Assembly: GCA_019358935.1 (NCBI GenBank)
Contig: JAHHIK010000064.1
Location: 1 to 49,179, forward strand
DNA from: Tolypothrix carrinoi HA7290-LM1
Lineage (GTDB): Bacteria; Cyanobacteriota; Cyanobacteriia; Cyanobacteriales; Nostocaceae
Length of the DNA: 49,179 nucleotides
Direction: 5' to 3'
Positions within the stretch are counted from its first letter, which is position 1. Every line of letters begins with the position of its first letter. The notes under the pieces were generated by a model. The model saw only the letters and a list, made by a program, of their open reading frames with translations. It had not been told where the DNA came from and did no database searches. The translations under genes were made by a program, and so were the position numbers. This document shows, piece after piece, positions 2,169 to 41,589 of this stretch.

Positions 2169-2321
2169 CTTGCAGCGTTAACGGGTTCGCCACTACGAAT
2201 GGACCCTACAGGCAACCGCGCTGCCTTGACTCACCGCAACGCACTGGCTCCCCTACAATACTTTAGAGGAACATAGCAAAAACCTGCTCACTAAATATTT
2301 TCCCTCAGCAAAGCCAAGAGC

Positions 2322-13772: not shown

Positions 13773-13817
13773 AAGCCAGCGCCGTGCGGGGGTTCCCCCC
13801 GTTGAGGCGACTGGCGC
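13773..13817 (+). mobile_element. 45-bp structured mini-element inside a CGCARAG repeat / MITE remnant
   Basis: AAGCCAGCGCCGTGCGGGGGTTCCCCCCGTTGAGGCGACTGGCGC; near-identical to the reverse complement of 26583-26627. Confidence 0.8.
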
Positions 13818-21317: not shown

Positions 21318-23007
21318 AAGATATAAATCTTGTAGAGATGTAGAAGTGCTATGTCTCTATTTGTTGTCGTAAAAGCTGAATAATGAATTCAGTACCCTGT
21401 CCTGGCACAGAGACGCAATCAATAGAACCACCATGTTTTTCTACGACAATAGCCTTTGCGATCGCCAGTCCTAATCCCGTTCCTTTACCGACAGCTTTCG
21501 TAGTAAATAAGTGGTCAAAAATCTTTTGTTTGACTGATTCGGTCATCCCCTGACCATTATCAGCAATGGTAATTTTCACGCCTTCATTTTCTACTGAGGT
21601 TGTAATTGTAATTCGGTTAGGATTAGCTTTAATTTCTGCAAAACTCCGACCTGTATTTGATTCCTCCAACGCATCAATAGCATTTGCCAGAATATTCATA
21701 AATACCTGATTTAATTGCCCAGGAAAACACTCAAATTGAGGCAAATTGCCATAGTTGGTAATCACTTCAATTGCTGGACGTTGTTCGTTAGCTTTCAGGC
21801 GATGTTTGAGAATTAAAATCGTACTGTCGATACCTTCGTGGATGTTAAATGGTACTTTGTAATCTTTATCAGCGCGGGAGAAAGTTCTTAAACTAGTACT
21901 AATGTTGTGGAGGCGATCGCAAGCCATCACCATTGAATCAATTATCTTGGGTAAGTCTTCTAAGCTATAATCCAAGTCAATTTCTTCGGCATGGTCGATA
22001 ATTTCATCACCTGGATTGGGTAAACTTTCTTGATATAGTTTCAAGTGTTCGACAATATCAGCAAGAGTGGGTTTAGCTTGTTTGAGACTGGCATAAATAA
22101 AGCCCAAAGGATTATTCATTTCATGTGCCACCCCTGCAACTAAGTTACCCAGTGCAGACATTTTCTCACTTTGGACAATTTGTAGTTGTGCCTGTTGTAA
22201 ATCTTGTAGAGCTTTTTCCAATTCTTGGGATTTCTGGATAACAGCGGCTTCGGCTTGTTTGCGTTCTGTGACATCTAACAATAAGCCATCCCAAATAATT
22301 GAGCCATCAGCTTGTTTAATCGGACGGGATGCAGCTTGAATCCATTTTAACTGACCCGAAGGAGTGATAATTCGTCCAGAGTATCGCCAAGGCTCCAAGG
22401 TTTGAGCAGAAACGGTAACAGACTCTTGATAACGTGCCATGTCCTCTGGATGAGTCAAAGACCTCAAGCTACTAGCATCAGCTACCGCTTGCTCTGGTGA
22501 GATTCCGTAAATTTCATAACAACCAGTACTAGCGTAGTTGAATCTGGGTAGACCATCTGGTGAAAGCTGAAATTGATAAATCATCCCCGGAGCATTTTCC
22601 GCAAGGCGTTGGAAGCGGGCTTCGCTGTAGTGTAGATTAGTGTACAGTCGAGCATTTTCTAGAGATATCGCGGCTTGAGTACAAAGTAAGTTAATTATGC
22701 TGAGGCGATCGCGAGTAAATACCCCACTTGTCAGTTGATTTTCTAAATACAGAATCCCTACTAAATGCCCTTGATTAATAATCGGAGTACAAAATACACT
22801 TTGGGGTTGATGTTGCAACATATATTCCCCAATTAAACCAGGGATATCTGTTTTGCAATTATCTATCACAACTGTTTGTTGGGTATTTTTGACGTAATTG
22901 ATAATTTTTACGGGAATATCTTGACAATTGAAGAGTGATTGTGGTTCGAGGATAGTTTGTATTTCCTCATGCTCAATCAAGGTAATTGCTCGTATTTGCC
23001 AAGTATG

Positions 23008-23079
23008 AACGGACACCTGCCTCTCCTGACGGAGACGCTGCGCGAACGACGGGGGGAACTTCCGCACAGCAGTGTCCTC
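23008..23079 (-). mobile_element. 48-bp hairpin element containing a 24-bp element (23023-23046)
   Basis: 72-bp in-frame insert EDTAVRKFPPSFAQRLRQERQVSV between LPQE and HTWQ. Confidence 0.8.
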
Positions 23080-25288
23080 TTCTTGGGGAAGCAGCAGTAC
23101 AGCTTTTTTCGCGCCGGAGTTTTCGAGGATAATGCGGGTGAGGCTGGCAATGAGTTGATCTAATTCTAGAGAACTGGAGATAGCAATAGCTGCTTTTAGT
23201 ACGCTTGTAAAATCCAGAACATCGAAAAGACTGGTGCTGCAAGTGCTATTCGTGCAAGTAGATGAGGAAGTGCCACGAAAGCTAATAGTTTCGTCGTGTT
23301 TGAGGGTAAGTCGTTGCTGTTCTAGAATCGGTTTGAGAAGTTGGGGATAGCGTTTTTCTAAGTCCGAGGTTTTGGCTAAAGCGCCCCAGCGGGTATAGCA
23401 ATAGTAGGCTTCATGTATATAATCTGCGGCGACTTTTTTTTTGCCCCAGTCGAGGTAGAATTTGGCTGCTAGTTCGTTGGCGATCGCTTCTTCATAGCCA
23501 TGCTAGCAATTTCAGCTAGAGACAGATGCATTAATGCTACATAAAACACGCTGGAAGGGACTTTGGCATGACTGGAAATGGTGTTTTCAATTATGCTCAG
23601 TTGGGGAATTAAATCCGGATATGCGGCTTTGTGGTCAAATAAATAAGCATGACGAATTTTGACAGAATACAACCAAGCCAGATGATAAGGGGTATTGCTA
23701 TATTTTTGTAAATACTCAGCTTCACTGAAACTCTCGTCATCAAAGCTGAAGGGGGTTTTTGTTAAACCAAGAAGATTGCGAATTGGTTGAATAACTCCGA
23801 CTATTAAAGCATCTAAATTCTCTAAACTTTTGATGTTACGGAGAAAATCTGCATTTTGTTGGGCGATCGCATATAGTTCATCGAGATTTTTACCATAGGT
23901 GAGGCGATCGGAACCACTTTGCATCATCATAAAGCCAACGGTCAGCCAGTTCCCTGCTTCCATGCCATACTTGCAGGTGTTGTCGTAGTATGTATCTGCT
24001 TCTCTAATTGGACGACTCCAGCTATGCACATCGGCAGCAAAGAGAAAATTAGTCATTCCCCGGACATCTGCATTATCAAACTGTTCGCAAAGCTGCACTG
24101 CCATTTCTCCAAACTGATAAGCGATCGCAGAGTTTTTTAGCATCGCATTGGCAATTAAGCCATAGCCGACATAGCCAAAGGGGGACATATCGCTGTTACC
24201 ATACTGCAAACACAAAGTAGTCATCTTGGCAAGTCCAAGCAATGCTAAAGTCAGTTGACCATCAAGCCATGCAGCATAAAAGAGAATTTGTAAAATTCGC
24301 AACATCTCTGCAATACTGGCATCTGACATTTTGGGAAAATTGAGAATCGATTCAACAGTCTGCTGCTTTAAAAATCTGTTAACTATGGCAATTTCTTCGT
24401 CCAGACTTTGTTGAATCAGTTCTTGTTCTCTGGGCATTTCCCAGCCAAGTAGTTGTAAACTCTGACTGAGAATGGCGATCGCTTCCGCATTGCGTCCCTG
24501 AAGCTGATATTGAGTCATCTGCACGCGATAAATCACCGCTTTGTCTAAGGGTGTTTGAGCATGGCTAAGTGCTTTGCCATAAAGGACTTCGGCTTGGTCA
24601 AAATTACCACACAGATAAGCTGCTTCTGAGCCATATCGGTGCAAACTGTACATTAATTCATAGTCAGTCTGCCAAGCGGTTGCGGGTAATAAATCAATCC
24701 CAGTAGTATAATAGCTCTGGGATGCTTGATAAGCTGCCGAGAGTTTTGCTTTTTGTCCTGCTTGCAGGTTTAAGCCAGCCAGTTGTTTTTTCTGCTCATC
24801 GATGGCGATCGCAGCTTGTCCCAGATTCAGTTGGTTTACTAGGTCAAAAATCCGTTCTTGTTGTTCCTGCTGAGATAACCCTTGCAATAACAATTGACCA
24901 ATTATCAAATGTGTCTTTTGTTTTTGAGCTGACGGTATCAAGGAATAAGCTGCTTGTTGGACGCGATCGTGCAGAAATTTATATCCAATAATTTCCGAAT
25001 TTTCTTGAGTAACAGCTTGATTTTCTGACCCAACAAAAAACTTATAAACCTCACTTTGGGGTAAAATCAAATCGTCCTGTAAGGCACTCCACAAACAAGC
25101 AGCCGTTTCTATTTTTGATTGTTTAGAAACATTAGCGATTGTTTCTAAATCAAACTGATTCCCGATACACGCAGCTAATTTTAAAACACTTTGAGTTGAT
25201 TCTGGCAACTTTTGTAATTGCAATGTCATGAATTCTACAACATCATTTGTGAGCGATCGCTGATTTATTTGCGTGATATCACATTGCC

Positions 25289-25378
25289 ACCCCCCTTCAC
25301 TTCCCACGCCACTTCTCTCAACGGGGGGAACCCCCGCACGAGAGTGGCTCCCCGAACTTCGGGGGGACAGAGGGGGGT
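25289..25378. mobile_element. 45-bp element (25306-25350) nested in a C/G-tract palindrome
   Basis: In-frame insert YPPLSPRSSGSHSRAGVPPVERSGVGSEGG; removing the 45-mer restores CCCCCCGAACTTCGGGGGG. Confidence 0.8.
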
Positions 25379-25628
25379 AGTTAAATTCAATTAATCCATC
25401 TTGATGTAATGCTTTGAGAAACTGTGTAGCGAAAAACGGATTCCCTTGAGTTTTCTGAGATACAAGTTGAGAAAGAGGCAATGCAGAATTCTCTGTACAT
25501 TTAAGTGTGTCAGCAACTAACTGATTCACTTGCCCTTGACTCAGTGGTGCTAAAGTAATCGTATTAATCGTGGTTGCTGTTTTTTGGATATCACTCAAAG
25601 TCAACATCAAAGGATGTGCTGAATTTAT

Positions 25629-25742
25629 GAGGCACTGCGTTGGTGAGGCAGCGCGGTCATGTTCGTTACCCCCATGAGCGACTGCCGAAAGGGTTTCCCG
25701 GCTTGTTCGCGCAGCGTCTCCGTAAGGAGAAGCAAGTGCCGT
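25629..25742 (+). mobile_element. Nested cluster of 45 + 45 + 24 bp elements
   Basis: 114-bp in-frame insert between RDNE and INSAHP; parses as 16+[45]+16+[24]+13. Confidence 0.85.
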
Positions 25743-26524
25743 TTCGTTATCACGATACGCACCAATTAATAAAAGATGATTTGTATCAGCCATTAATAAC
25801 TGTATTAAATTCAGCGATGCCGAATCTGCCCATTGCAAATCATCTAAAAACATCACTAATGGATGTTCAGCACTAGTAAAGACTTGGGTAAACTTTTGGA
25901 ATAATAAATTAAATCTATTTTGTGCCGCAGTTCCTGATAATTCTGGAGCTGGTGGTTGGATACCAATAATTCTTGATAATTCGGGGATGACTTCAATAAT
26001 TACCTGTCCGTTCTCACCTACAGCTGATAAAATCTTGCTTTTCCATTTTTGGATTTGTGCATCGTTTTCTGTTAACAATTGCCCGATTAAATCCCGGAAT
26101 GCTTGCACAAATGCCGAAAAGGGAATATTTCGTTGAAATTGGTCATACTTCCCTTTAATAAAATAACCGCGTTGACGCACAATCGGTTTATGAACTTCGT
26201 TGACAACCGCAGTTTTACCAATACCCGAAAAACCAGCTACCAGCATCATTTGTGTTGCACTCTGGCTAACTCTTTCAAATGCTTGCAGTAGAATTTCTAC
26301 TTCTGTTTCTCGTCCATAAAGTTTGTCGGGGATAATAAAGCGATCGCACACATCCCGTTGTGCAATTGGGAAACTCTCTATTTTACCAGTTTCTTGAAGT
26401 TGATACAAACAAGTTTCTAAATCAAATTTCAGTCCTAATGCGCTCTGATAGCGGTCTTCAGCATTTTTTGCCATCAATTTTCTGACAATATCTGACAACA
26501 CTTGCGGAATCTCTTCACTTTTGA

Positions 26525-26659
26525 ACGCCAGTTGCTTCAAGTCGGCAGAGCCGACGGCAGGTGCTACAACGGGGGGAACCCCACGCCAGTCGCCTCAACG
26601 GAGGGAACCTCCGCACAGCGCTGGCTCCGCAACGCACTGCCTCCCCAACACACTGGCTC
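26525..26659 (-). mobile_element. Triple-nested 45-bp elements within a TCAAAAG heptamer run
   Basis: 135 bp parses on + as 29+29+[45]+16+16. Confidence 0.88.
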
Positions 26660-27591
26660 CTTTTAACTTTTGACTTTTGACTTCCCGAAGGGATGGTGGA
26701 AGTTTTGCAATATGACAATGTACCAACTCCATCGGATCGTTTGATTGAAATGGTAATTCTCCCGTCAATATTTCGTAAAAAGTGGCACCAAGAGAATAAA
26801 AATCAGTCCGGTAGTCAATCCCCCGATTCATCCTTCCCGTTTGTTCTGGGGAAATATAAGCGAGTGTCCCTTCTAACACATTTGGACTAATTAGGGTTTG
26901 AGTTTCTCTTGGCAGCAGAGATGCAATACTAAAGTCAATTAATTTAACTTGTTTGGTTAGAGGATTAATTAAAATATTGCTCGGTTTAATATCTTTATGA
27001 ATAATGCGCGATCGGTAGAGAATATCTAAAGTATTACAAAGGGCGATCGCAATCTGCAAAAACTCTTGACCAGACGCGATATATCGCGTCTCTACATTGG
27101 TAAAATAATCTTTTAGAGAAATCCCCCCAAAGTCTTCCATCACCAGCGCATAGCCATTTTGATAGGGTTCTAAGCTGTAAGTTTGGATGATTAGGGGTGA
27201 GTTGAGATTTTTGGCAATGGTATACTGATTGCGAAACTGCACCAGTTCGCTGAAACTAGGATAAGGATTTTTCAGTAGTTTAATCACCACTGGTAACGAG
27301 TCAGTTTCTCGATATCCCCGATAAACTACGGTTCTAGAACCGTTGTACAGTTGTTCGCTGACTTGATATCCGGGAATACTCACTCTTATATTAGCCATGT
27401 TATTTAATCGTTGAGGCTTCCGGATTTAGTATTCCCTGATGCGCGAATAAATTTCAAACCAACGTCAAAATATTTACACACCAATTCTCATTTGAAAACG
27501 AGTTTGCGTCATCTGAGGATTCGCGACGTTTGTTAATAATTATCAACTCTCCTGCTAATCTCTAACTGTGACTTCAAAACTTAGGAAATTT

Positions 27592-41544: not shown

Positions 41545-41589
41545 GAGGCAGTGCGTTGCGCGGGTTCCCCGCGTTGTAGCACCTGCCGT
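41545..41589 (+). mobile_element. 45-bp structured mini-element inserted in a GGGCATT heptamer run
   Basis: GAGGCAGTGCGTTGCGCGGGTTCCCCGCGTTGTAGCACCTGCCGT between GGG and CATT. Confidence 0.85.

What the first reader, a model, noticed from the sequence alone, without database searches (positions are those of the whole stretch)
26525..26659. Russian-doll family of 45-bp structured mobile elements with covarying stems and a fixed nesting register
Seen (minus strand): GAGCCAGTGTGTTGGG[GAGGCAGTGCGTTGCG[GAGCCAGCGCTGTGCGGAGGTTCCCTCCGTTGAGGCGACTGGCGT]GGGGTTCCCCCCGTTGTAGCACCTGCCGT]CGGCTCTGCCGACTTGAAGCAACTGGCGT. These are three different 45-mers, each inner one inserted after nt 16 of its host, with no target duplication. 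Nine full members occur in the window (also 13773, 23008, 25306, 25629, 25645, 41545). Sequences diverge but pairing is kept: outer stem GCCAG/CTGGC, GGCAG/CTGCC, GGCAC/GTGCC, GCCAC/GTGGC, GGACAC/GTGTCC; one-base bulge; middle stem TGC/GCA, CGC/GCG, TCT/AGA; apical GGAGG/CCTCC, GGGGG/CCCCC, GCGGG/CCCGC; ends mostly GAG...CGT. Established: 21-27 nt nested SDRs are described in Nostoc. Inference: a larger, fold-defined, codon-length class mobilised in trans via ssDNA or RNA (candidates: HUH/RAYT-type transposase, IS110-type recombinase, or reverse transcriptase). I cannot tell whether this 45-bp class is already described.
Basis: partly seen in the sequence, partly recalled or inferred. Interest (0 to 1): 0.85.

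Follow-up and report, generated by a model that had tools for sequence, protein, structure and literature searches.

The report
Self-nesting 45-base mobile cyanobacterial hairpins
A 45-base DNA hairpin, present in hundreds of copies in this filamentous cyanobacterium and in most of its relatives, inserts precisely into other repeats, into genes and into its own copies; it is a larger cousin of the little-studied 'small dispersed repeats' of Nostoc, and the enzyme that moves it is still unknown.

Summary
The nest is real: three different 45-mers, each inserted after nt 16 of its host, no duplication. The genome holds 367 members (0 in a shuffle). The exact pattern occurs in 173 of 200 genomes of the family. 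Stems covary, and non-canonical pairs are mostly G·T or G·A on the GAG…CGT strand. Mobility is supported: 0 of 30 testable sites are shared with a 93%-identical relative, which also lacks one composite precisely. Lengths run 41–48, with a 54–60-nt sister class. This nest puts a stop codon into a kinase gene. Best model: a non-autonomous element moved as a folded single DNA strand. Neither Y1 transposases nor reverse transcriptases track with it. It works like Elhai's SDRs, but I could not read that paper, and the family occurs in their genome, so novelty is uncertain. The scan noted similar self-nesting mini-elements on other DNA.

The parts
26525..26659 (-). Outer 45-nt member (nt 1-16 = 26659-26644; nt 17-45 = 26553-26525), host of the nest
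   Evidence: third peeling round, 66 bits
26554..26643 (-). Middle 45-nt member (nt 1-16 = 26643-26628; nt 17-45 = 26582-26554)
   Evidence: second round, 80 bits
26583..26627 (-). Innermost intact 45-nt member
   Evidence: 69.6 bits; DNA fold z = -4.0
26595..26597 (-). In-frame TGA supplied by the innermost member; splits the kinase domain from the AAA domain
26513..26682 (-). Heptamer (STRR-type) tract in the kinase-AAA linker that received the nest; phase unbroken
   Evidence: read; the relatives' linker has another heptamer and no insert
26595..27398 (-). Ser/Thr kinase part of the interrupted kinase-AAA-GAF-PAS-histidine kinase gene
   Evidence: PF00069
23469..26540 (-). AAA_16 part of the same gene; same frame as the kinase part; ends early
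   Evidence: PF13191
21349..23067 (-). GAF-PAS-HisKA-HATPase part, probably of the same gene (inference from domain order)
25306..25350 (-). Intact member inside a G6/C6 palindrome, in frame; relative G001 has a different member in the opposite orientation at the symmetric site
25629..25742 (+). 114-nt composite: host member, inner member 25644-25688, and a 24-nt two-hairpin insert 25706-25729; absent from G001 and from contigs of runs X4 and X5
23009..23079 (-). 47-nt variant (6-bp outer stem) carrying a 24-nt two-hairpin insert at 23023-23046
   Evidence: read
13773..13817 (+). Intact member of the A...C end type, inside a CGCAGAG-type repeat
41545..41589 (+). Intact member in a GGGCATT-type heptamer tract
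2181..2250 (-).

Best explanation
A non-coding, non-autonomous micro-transposable element of the SDR kind. SHOWN: one strand (GAG...CGT) can fold into an interrupted hairpin (5-bp outer stem, one-base 3' bulge at nt 38, 3-bp middle stem, internal loop, 7-bp apical stem, T-N-Y triloop). It is found as a precise unit, in one orientation, 3' of a short target (W-G-R-G|), with no duplication. It is enriched in heptamer tracts and also lies in other hairpin repeats, genes and its own copies. Nesting after nt 16 occurs because nt 13-16 of a member read T-G-S-G, a match to the target. INFERRED: it moves as folded single-stranded DNA that an enzyme acting in trans cuts at the foot of the hairpin and joins into a target strand, in the manner of IS200/IS605 Y1 (HUH) elements, probably through a circle with a CGT|GAG joint. 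The enzyme reads the outer stem and bulge rather than the apical stem. Nesting followed by slippage between the tandem arms shuffles outer shells and apical cores. The enzyme is not identified; I put about 0.35 on an HUH-type protein specifically.
For: Mobility: 25 of 25 G000 members with a syntenic interval are missing in G001 and 5 of 5 G001 members are missing in G000 (93.4% identity). The 114-nt composite is precisely absent (also skipped by X4 and X5 contigs). Two different members sit at symmetric sites of one palindrome in opposite orientation. No duplication: junction ambiguity 0/1/2/3 nt in 86/69/16/8 of 179 contexts. Target: -4 W 152, -3 G 161, -1 G 148 of 179; replicated in 166 elements from other DNA (143, 134, 110). 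Fold: 94.9% of cells paired, 143 double-change cells against 49.8 shuffled, 0 of 500. Strand: 2:44 A·G 279, 13:32 T·G 283, 14:30 G·T 275 of 289 unique sequences; the GAG strand folds better in 284 of 289. Apical stem dispensable: variants with a broken apical stem occur 11, 14, 7 and 4 times, the first three at several unrelated sites. No bias to transcription: 21 sense and 22 antisense in ORFs, 37 and 47 between co-directional genes. RT not found in five complete or near-complete genomes with 29, 20, 15, 5 and 4 copies. The hallmarks no TIR, no TSD, insertion 3' of a 4-5-nt target and hairpin requirement are those given for IS200/IS605 in PMC7290912 (passages).
Against: No Y1 gene lies near a member (nearest 1,634 bp) and the flanks of the seven G000 Y1 genes show other hairpins (read by eye). 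Y1 is found in 137 of 151 genomes of the order, so it does not discriminate; it was not found in G159 (4 copies), is only a fragment with a stop in G136 (5 copies), and G148 (29 copies) has only a RAYT-like gene flanked by its own repeat. No guide-target pairing was found: the 4:42 versus +1 covariation is strong in G000 (32 of 47 against 13 of 113) but weak elsewhere (11 of 31 against 20 of 135, p = 0.019). No significant replichore bias (best split 64 of 100, p = 0.067). IS200/IS605 elements have two end hairpins; this has one. G·T and G·A pairs fit RNA as well as DNA. No circle or intermediate was observed. Only one half-collapsed nest supports the shuffling route. In most of the 30 compared intervals the surrounding repeat tract also differs, so few are clean empty sites.
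Confidence: 0.55

Rival explanations
1. No dedicated enzyme. Host repair or recombination copies the hairpin into nicks or gaps at slip-prone, G-rich repeats, using a few bases of microhomology to the donor's old flanks.
For: Near-identical members share junction bases more than dissimilar ones even after homologous hosts are filtered (-1: 0.86 vs 0.64; +1: 0.53 vs 0.27; +2: 0.50 vs 0.32). 81 of 313 outermost members lie in short tandem tracts against 461 of 9,779 background W-G-R-G sites. Neither Y1 nor RT is found in all carriers.
Against: Ends are exact to the base in unrelated contexts and in nests. Fixed non-canonical pairs and the bulge are kept across families, which implies a reader of the fold. 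Shared junction bases may come from co-amplified repeat tracts.
Confidence: 0.2
2. RNA intermediate. The element is released from transcripts as a small structured RNA and copied into DNA by a reverse transcriptase such as a group II intron RT (the route that I recall Elhai et al. favouring for SDR4-6; recalled, not read).
For: Invariant G·T (G·U) wobbles and G·A pairs on one strand. G000, the most copy-rich genome of the 201 searched, has 18 RT matches and 23 group II intron D5/D6 matches. RT genes come and go, so present absence is weak evidence.
Against: RT not found in G148, G153, G040, G136 and G118. RT is found in 134 of 151 genomes, most without the element. No sense bias. No Rfam match in the window. 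T-N-Y and G-N-A triloops are, from my own knowledge, more typical of DNA hairpins.
Confidence: 0.17
3. A MITE-like or IS110-like passenger moved as double-stranded DNA by a DDE transposase or a bridge recombinase.
For: The outer stem resembles a short inverted repeat; IS110 elements also leave no duplication (own knowledge); two PF02371 matches exist in G000.
Against: No duplication, unlike DDE MITEs. The repeat is subterminal, interrupted and strand-asymmetric. The IS110 matches are partial (positions 5-57 and 5-47 of 87) and far from members. The target is only about 4 nt, far shorter than a bridge-RNA target (own knowledge).
Confidence: 0.05
4. Identity rival: the family is already described, either as one of SDR1-8, as a composite of two SDRs (24 + 21 nt), or among the longer repeats of Elhai et al. 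2008 or the trnL-intron inserts.
For: A sister-class copy with the same 45-nt core lies on N. punctiforme PCC 73102 plasmid pNPUN02, the organism of that survey (recalled). Habits match what I recall of SDRs: nesting, heptamer tracts, covariation.
Against: No shorter 'empty' form is common: arm-to-arm lengths below 41 gave one hit, at 27, and nests and orthologues move the whole unit. The SDR size range that I recall is 21-27 nt. No 45-mer in the 30 best-scoring group I intron loci (ranking by score may disfavour introns with inserts). Nine literature searches listed no paper describing it.
Confidence: 0.3

Closest known systems
Small dispersed repeats SDR1-8 of Nostoc punctiforme and relatives (Elhai et al. 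2008, Genome Res 18:1484, PMC2527708; not held, content recalled; cited in passages of PMC5861425, PMC4390886, PMC3733652, PMC3116915)
   Same: Very small, non-coding, dispersed, precise insertion, self-nesting, sits in heptamer tracts and mini-transposons, structure kept by compensatory change, same lineage, no known enzyme.
   Different: 41-48 nt (sister class 54-60) against a recalled 21-27 nt; one long interrupted hairpin; W-G-R-G| target rather than HIP1 (SDR5 inserts in HIP1 per PMC4390886 and PMC5861425); also found outside Nostocaceae (Gloeocapsopsis and Gloeocapsa plasmids), whereas PMC5861425 reports no SDR outside that family.
IS200/IS605 non-autonomous derivatives (PATEs), Y1 HUH (PMC7290912, passages)
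   Same: No terminal inverted repeats in the DDE sense, no target duplication, oriented insertion 3' of a tetranucleotide, strand-specific imperfect hairpin.
   Different: One hairpin whose feet are the ends, not two end hairpins; G-rich target; no guide pairing found; no parent IS with these ends found.
REP/REPIN elements moved by RAYTs (PMC3116915, PMC3733652, passages)
   Same: Short GC-rich imperfect palindromes in hundreds of copies, lineage-limited.
   Different: No GTAG or CGTC tag, single units rather than inverted doublets, not clustered round RAYT genes, and often inside ORFs (43 of 313). Members insert into REP-like repeats rather than being them.
Rickettsia palindromic elements
   Same: Palindromic repeats kept in frame inside genes (41 of 43 ORF insertions are stop-free).
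   Different: Much shorter, mostly non-coding, self-nesting.

Membership tests
SDR class (Elhai 2008; features recalled) | Dispersed multi-copy non-coding repeat | tested here: met
   367 members, 179 distinct contexts
SDR class (Elhai 2008; features recalled) | Length 21-27 nt | tested here: not met
   41-48 nt, peak 45; sister class 54-60
SDR class (Elhai 2008; features recalled) | Precise insertion with filled and empty sites | tested here: met
SDR class (Elhai 2008; features recalled) | Self-nesting and residence in heptamer tracts | tested here: met
   54 nested events; 81 of 313 in tandem tracts
SDR class (Elhai 2008; features recalled) | Structure supported by compensatory change | tested here: met
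   R-scape not available
SDR class (PMC5861425 passage) | Confined to Nostocaceae | tested here: not met
   18 of 143 genomes of the order outside family f1, 6 of 7 in f17; Gloeocapsopsis and Gloeocapsa plasmids; 0 of 101 genomes of families outside the order
SDR1-8 (named families) | Sequence identity to a published consensus | not testable with these tools
   paper not held
IS200/IS605 PATE | No TSD; insertion 3' of a 4-5-nt target | tested here: met
IS200/IS605 PATE | A hairpin at each end, derived from a parent IS with tnpA | tested here: not met
   single hairpin; no parent among 7 Y1 loci, no long copy with matching ends within 6 kb among 120 orphan left arms
IS200/IS605 PATE | Guide tetranucleotide pairing with the target | tested here: inconclusive
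   only weak element-flank covariation outside G000
REP/REPIN-RAYT | GTAG/CGTC tag, doublets, clustering at a RAYT gene | tested here: not met
DDE MITE | Terminal inverted repeats and target duplication | tested here: not met
Any Rfam family | Gathering-threshold match | tested here: not met
   0 matches in the window

The most novel reading that the evidence does not exclude
An undescribed superfamily of fold-defined micro-elements (45-nt and 54-60-nt classes sharing one bulged outer stem) that is spread by a lineage-conserved enzyme which is neither a canonical Y1 transposase nor a reverse transcriptase. Such an enzyme would insert a folded oligonucleotide scarlessly after a 4-base motif, and might be the missing mover of the whole SDR class and of the look-alike mini-elements noted elsewhere in this scan.
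Probability: 0.3. Interest if true: 0.82.

Novelty: new variant of a known kind. Interest (0 to 1): 0.55.

Why it matters
I found no paper that names an enzyme for SDR-type micro-elements. This family makes the question testable. It has exact ends, a defined target (W-G-R-G|), a defined folding strand, thousands of copies across cultured filamentous cyanobacteria including N. punctiforme PCC 73102, complete turnover between 93%-identical genomes, and carriers that lack RT or Y1 genes and so narrow the candidates. It is also a real mutagen in this lineage: it adds 15-residue inserts to proteins (41 stop-free cases in one genome) and can break genes, as here. An enzyme that inserts a short folded oligonucleotide without a scar could be a useful tool.

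Tried and rejected
45-mer as a composite of shorter SDRs: no common shorter empty form. Guide pairing between element and target: apart from 4:42 versus +1 and the end bases versus -1/+1, no signal; the former faded in independent data. Group II intron D5 likeness (shared GAGCC start): the 14 D5/D6 sequences inspected by eye have another stem and loop; rejected. Linkage to Y1, RT or IS110 genes: nearest member 486 bp from one of 8 RTs checked, the others kilobases away or on contigs with none. Phylogenetic profile with Y1 and RT: not discriminating. Weak Y1 matches in carriers are RAYT-like genes with their own repeats. Autonomous long copy: none. Head-to-tail dimers as a sign of rolling-circle multimers: one chance hit in G000, two distinct cases in other loci; uninformative. 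Half-collapsed nests: the 18 '61-type' hits were full nests with variant hosts; 1 true case. Replichore bias: not significant. Presence in group I intron loci: none in 30. Searches used a pattern one base too long (0 matches in G000): they caught mostly chance matches and perhaps a longer variant and are not used as evidence, so no valid named all-species scan was made. A two-hairpin census returned 0 and is probably a pattern fault; not used. RNA: only contigs with 5-6% word share were offered and none was laid; the reads laid were DNA contigs, which cannot show intermediates. The 16S gene is not assembled in G000. Phage records: no match over 80% of the query; one viral-collection contig holds five copies and was not examined further.

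Full report
OBSERVATION. The quoted 135 bases stand at 26525-26659 on the minus strand and resolve into three 45-nt units, each inner one after nt 16 of its host. The nest lies in an AGTCAAA-type heptamer tract whose phase is unbroken, so there is no target duplication (read). It sits in the linker between the kinase and AAA domains of a kinase-AAA-GAF-PAS-histidine-kinase gene. It is in frame, but the innermost unit supplies a TGA. The AAA part also ends early at 23469, so the gene is probably a pseudogene (inference).

THE GENOME. G000 is 7.96 Mb, 42% G+C, with 7,884 HIP1 sites. Family labels are coded. I take f1 to be Nostocaceae by inference, because named plasmid matches come from Nostoc, Calothrix, Brasilonema and Aulosira.

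FAMILY SIZE AND SPREAD. A pair-aware score with iterative peeling found 367 members: 313, 49, 4 and 1 in rounds one to four; the shuffled genome gave none. Some copies come from duplication of whole tandem tracts; 179 distinct contexts remain among high-scoring G/A...T/C members. The exact pattern matched 173 of 200 genomes of f1, G000 highest with 226, and its reversed control never matched. It matched 18 of 143 genomes of the order outside f1, with 6 of 7 in f17 (4-20 copies) and 1-4 copies elsewhere. A covariance model matched 26 of 151 genomes of the phylum and 0 of 101 in families outside the order. Ten plasmid records carry a match over at least 80% of the query, including N. punctiforme PCC 73102, Gloeocapsopsis and Gloeocapsa.

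ANATOMY. Pairs 3-7 with 43-39, a bulge at 38 (any base, A most often), 8-10 with 37-35, an internal loop, 14-20 with 30-24, and a T-N-Y loop. I aligned 45 sequences picked by hand for diversity: 4 from the window and 41 of the 166 found elsewhere. On these, 94.9% of cells pair, 143 cells change on both sides against 49.8 in shuffles, and the covariation score is 0.532 against 0.151 (0 of 500 each). The two measures that count pairs or pair types were not significant (92 and 46 of 500), and slid controls fell to 40-58%. The invariant columns were partly fixed by the search pattern. In 289 unique sequences the non-canonical positions are mostly G·T or G·A on the GAG strand (2:44, 11:34, 13:32, 14:30, 16:28; 12:33 is T·T in 98), and that strand folds better in 284 as RNA and as DNA. 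The folded strand is thus defined; its chemistry is not. Variants with a scrambled apical stem occur at several unrelated sites, and the common outer shells occur with most apical cores, so the outer stem looks like the recognised part (inference).

LENGTH CLASSES. Arm-to-arm lengths are 45 in 284 cases, 46 in 51, 44 in 27, 47 in 11, and 41-43 or 48 in 16. A sister class starts with T, shares the bulged outer stem and adds a 3' hairpin with a G-N-A loop; 96 un-nested copies measure 54-60 nt. The N. punctiforme copy is of this class, 56 nt, and splits a codon run that reads HASW|LNQVE (read by eye; its likeness to IS630 transposases is recalled). 'Codon-length' is therefore not a defining trait. 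Of 313 outermost members, 43 lie in long ORFs and 41 of these are stop-free; this nest is one of the two exceptions. That fits selection on survivors.

TARGET AND REGISTER. In 179 contexts, -5 is W in 146, -4 W in 152, -3 G in 161 and -1 G in 148; 102 read W-G-R-G and 128 W-G-N-S. An independent set of 166 gave the same picture. Junction ambiguity is 0-1 nt in 155 of 179. Of 54 nested events, 34 follow nt 16, 7 nt 34, 1 nt 35 and 4 nt 25 in the same orientation, and 8 follow nt 24 or 26 in the opposite one. Host nt 13-16 match W-G-N-S in 86% of members. Matches after nt 5, 9 and 11, inside or at the edge of the paired stems, are about as common (97, 83, 61%) yet never used. Either a loosely paired target or the -5 base also matters. 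Tandem tracts hold 81 of 313 outermost members against 461 of 9,779 sampled background motif sites.

MOBILITY. I compared 800 kb of the 8.3-Mb relative G001; 633 kb aligned at 93.4% identity. All 25 G000 members with both flanks placed were absent from the orthologous interval, and 5 of the 9 G001 members could be tested and were absent from G000. Often the whole repeat tract differs, so few sites are clean. Clean cases: the 114-nt composite at 25629-25742 is missing to the base in G001 and is skipped by contigs of runs X4 and X5; two single-copy indels of 45-46 nt were seen. At 25306 the two genomes carry different members in opposite orientation at symmetric positions of one palindrome, which means two independent insertions. 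At the nest itself G001 and G009 have a different heptamer and no insert.

MECHANISM. Precise ends, no duplication, oriented insertion 3' of a tetranucleotide and a strand-specific imperfect hairpin are the hallmarks that PMC7290912 lists for IS200/IS605 (passages). There is no bias to transcription, and RT was not found in five carriers. I therefore favour a folded ssDNA moved in trans (0.55). Against a known Y1: no linkage, no parent element, no guide pairing, no significant replichore bias, and carriers without an intact Y1. Host repair with microhomology (0.2) is hinted at by shared junction bases among near-identical members. An RNA route (0.17) stays open because G·T and G·A pairs do not tell DNA from RNA. 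No intermediate was observed.

LITERATURE. Elhai et al. 2008 is not held; I saw nothing of it, and its content here is recalled. I saw passages of PMC4390886, PMC3733652, PMC6513891, PMC5861425, PMC3116915, PMC7290912, PMC2703918, PMC2884548 and PMC4692102, and passages plus section 18 of PMC4476775; none of what I saw describes a 45-nt family. Nine full-text searches listed no such paper, but the library lacks most subscription journals. The supplement of the SDR paper, which I could not see, bears directly on novelty. Rfam has no match. Earlier notes of this scan report similar self-nesting 20-44-nt elements in other bacteria, one in another cyanobacterium; none matched this sequence, and I did not test them.

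VERDICT. A real, abundant, fast-turning micro-element that works like an SDR but fails the size and range features, so I file it as a new variant of a known kind, with about 0.3 chance that it is already in print.

Noticed in passing
window 25706-25729 (+) and 23023-23046 (-): A 24-nt two-hairpin insert with G-N-A loops sits inside the internal loop of two family members; similar 20-28-nt inserts, some in HIP1, differ between G000 and G001. Probably classical SDRs.
   Followed up: partly
G000 genome-wide; L425:3000-3055: Sister class of 54-60 nt (T start, extra 3' hairpin); nests after nt 16/17 of 45-mers and in itself; its internal parts vary far more than those of the 45-mers.
   Followed up: partly
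G000, e.g. C3:80922, C12:59007, C8:83297: Variants differ by runs of 3-8 adjacent substitutions in one arm of the stem, which then spread; this suggests patch-like mutagenesis rather than point mutation.
   Followed up: partly
window 21349-27398 (-): The large kinase-ATPase-histidine kinase gene carries four insertion sites and is broken at least twice; the G001 orthologue also appears frameshifted (longest frame 668 residues).
   Followed up: partly
window about 2060-2170: Tandem array of an approximately 21-nt unit next to the truncated composite.
   Followed up: no
G000:C51:17950-18294 and C46:32571-32882: Two RAYT-like Y1 genes flanked by their own palindromic repeats; 45-mers insert into repeats like those beside the C51 gene.
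   Followed up: partly
L360-L364: One 66-kb viral-collection contig carries five members; could be a prophage, plasmid or host fragment.
   Followed up: no
G000: 23 group II intron D5/D6 matches and 18 RT matches, many at contig ends.
   Followed up: no
L205: A viral-collection contig has seven matches to the miscounted pattern at 129-base spacing, i.e. an unrelated tandem repeat.
   Followed up: no
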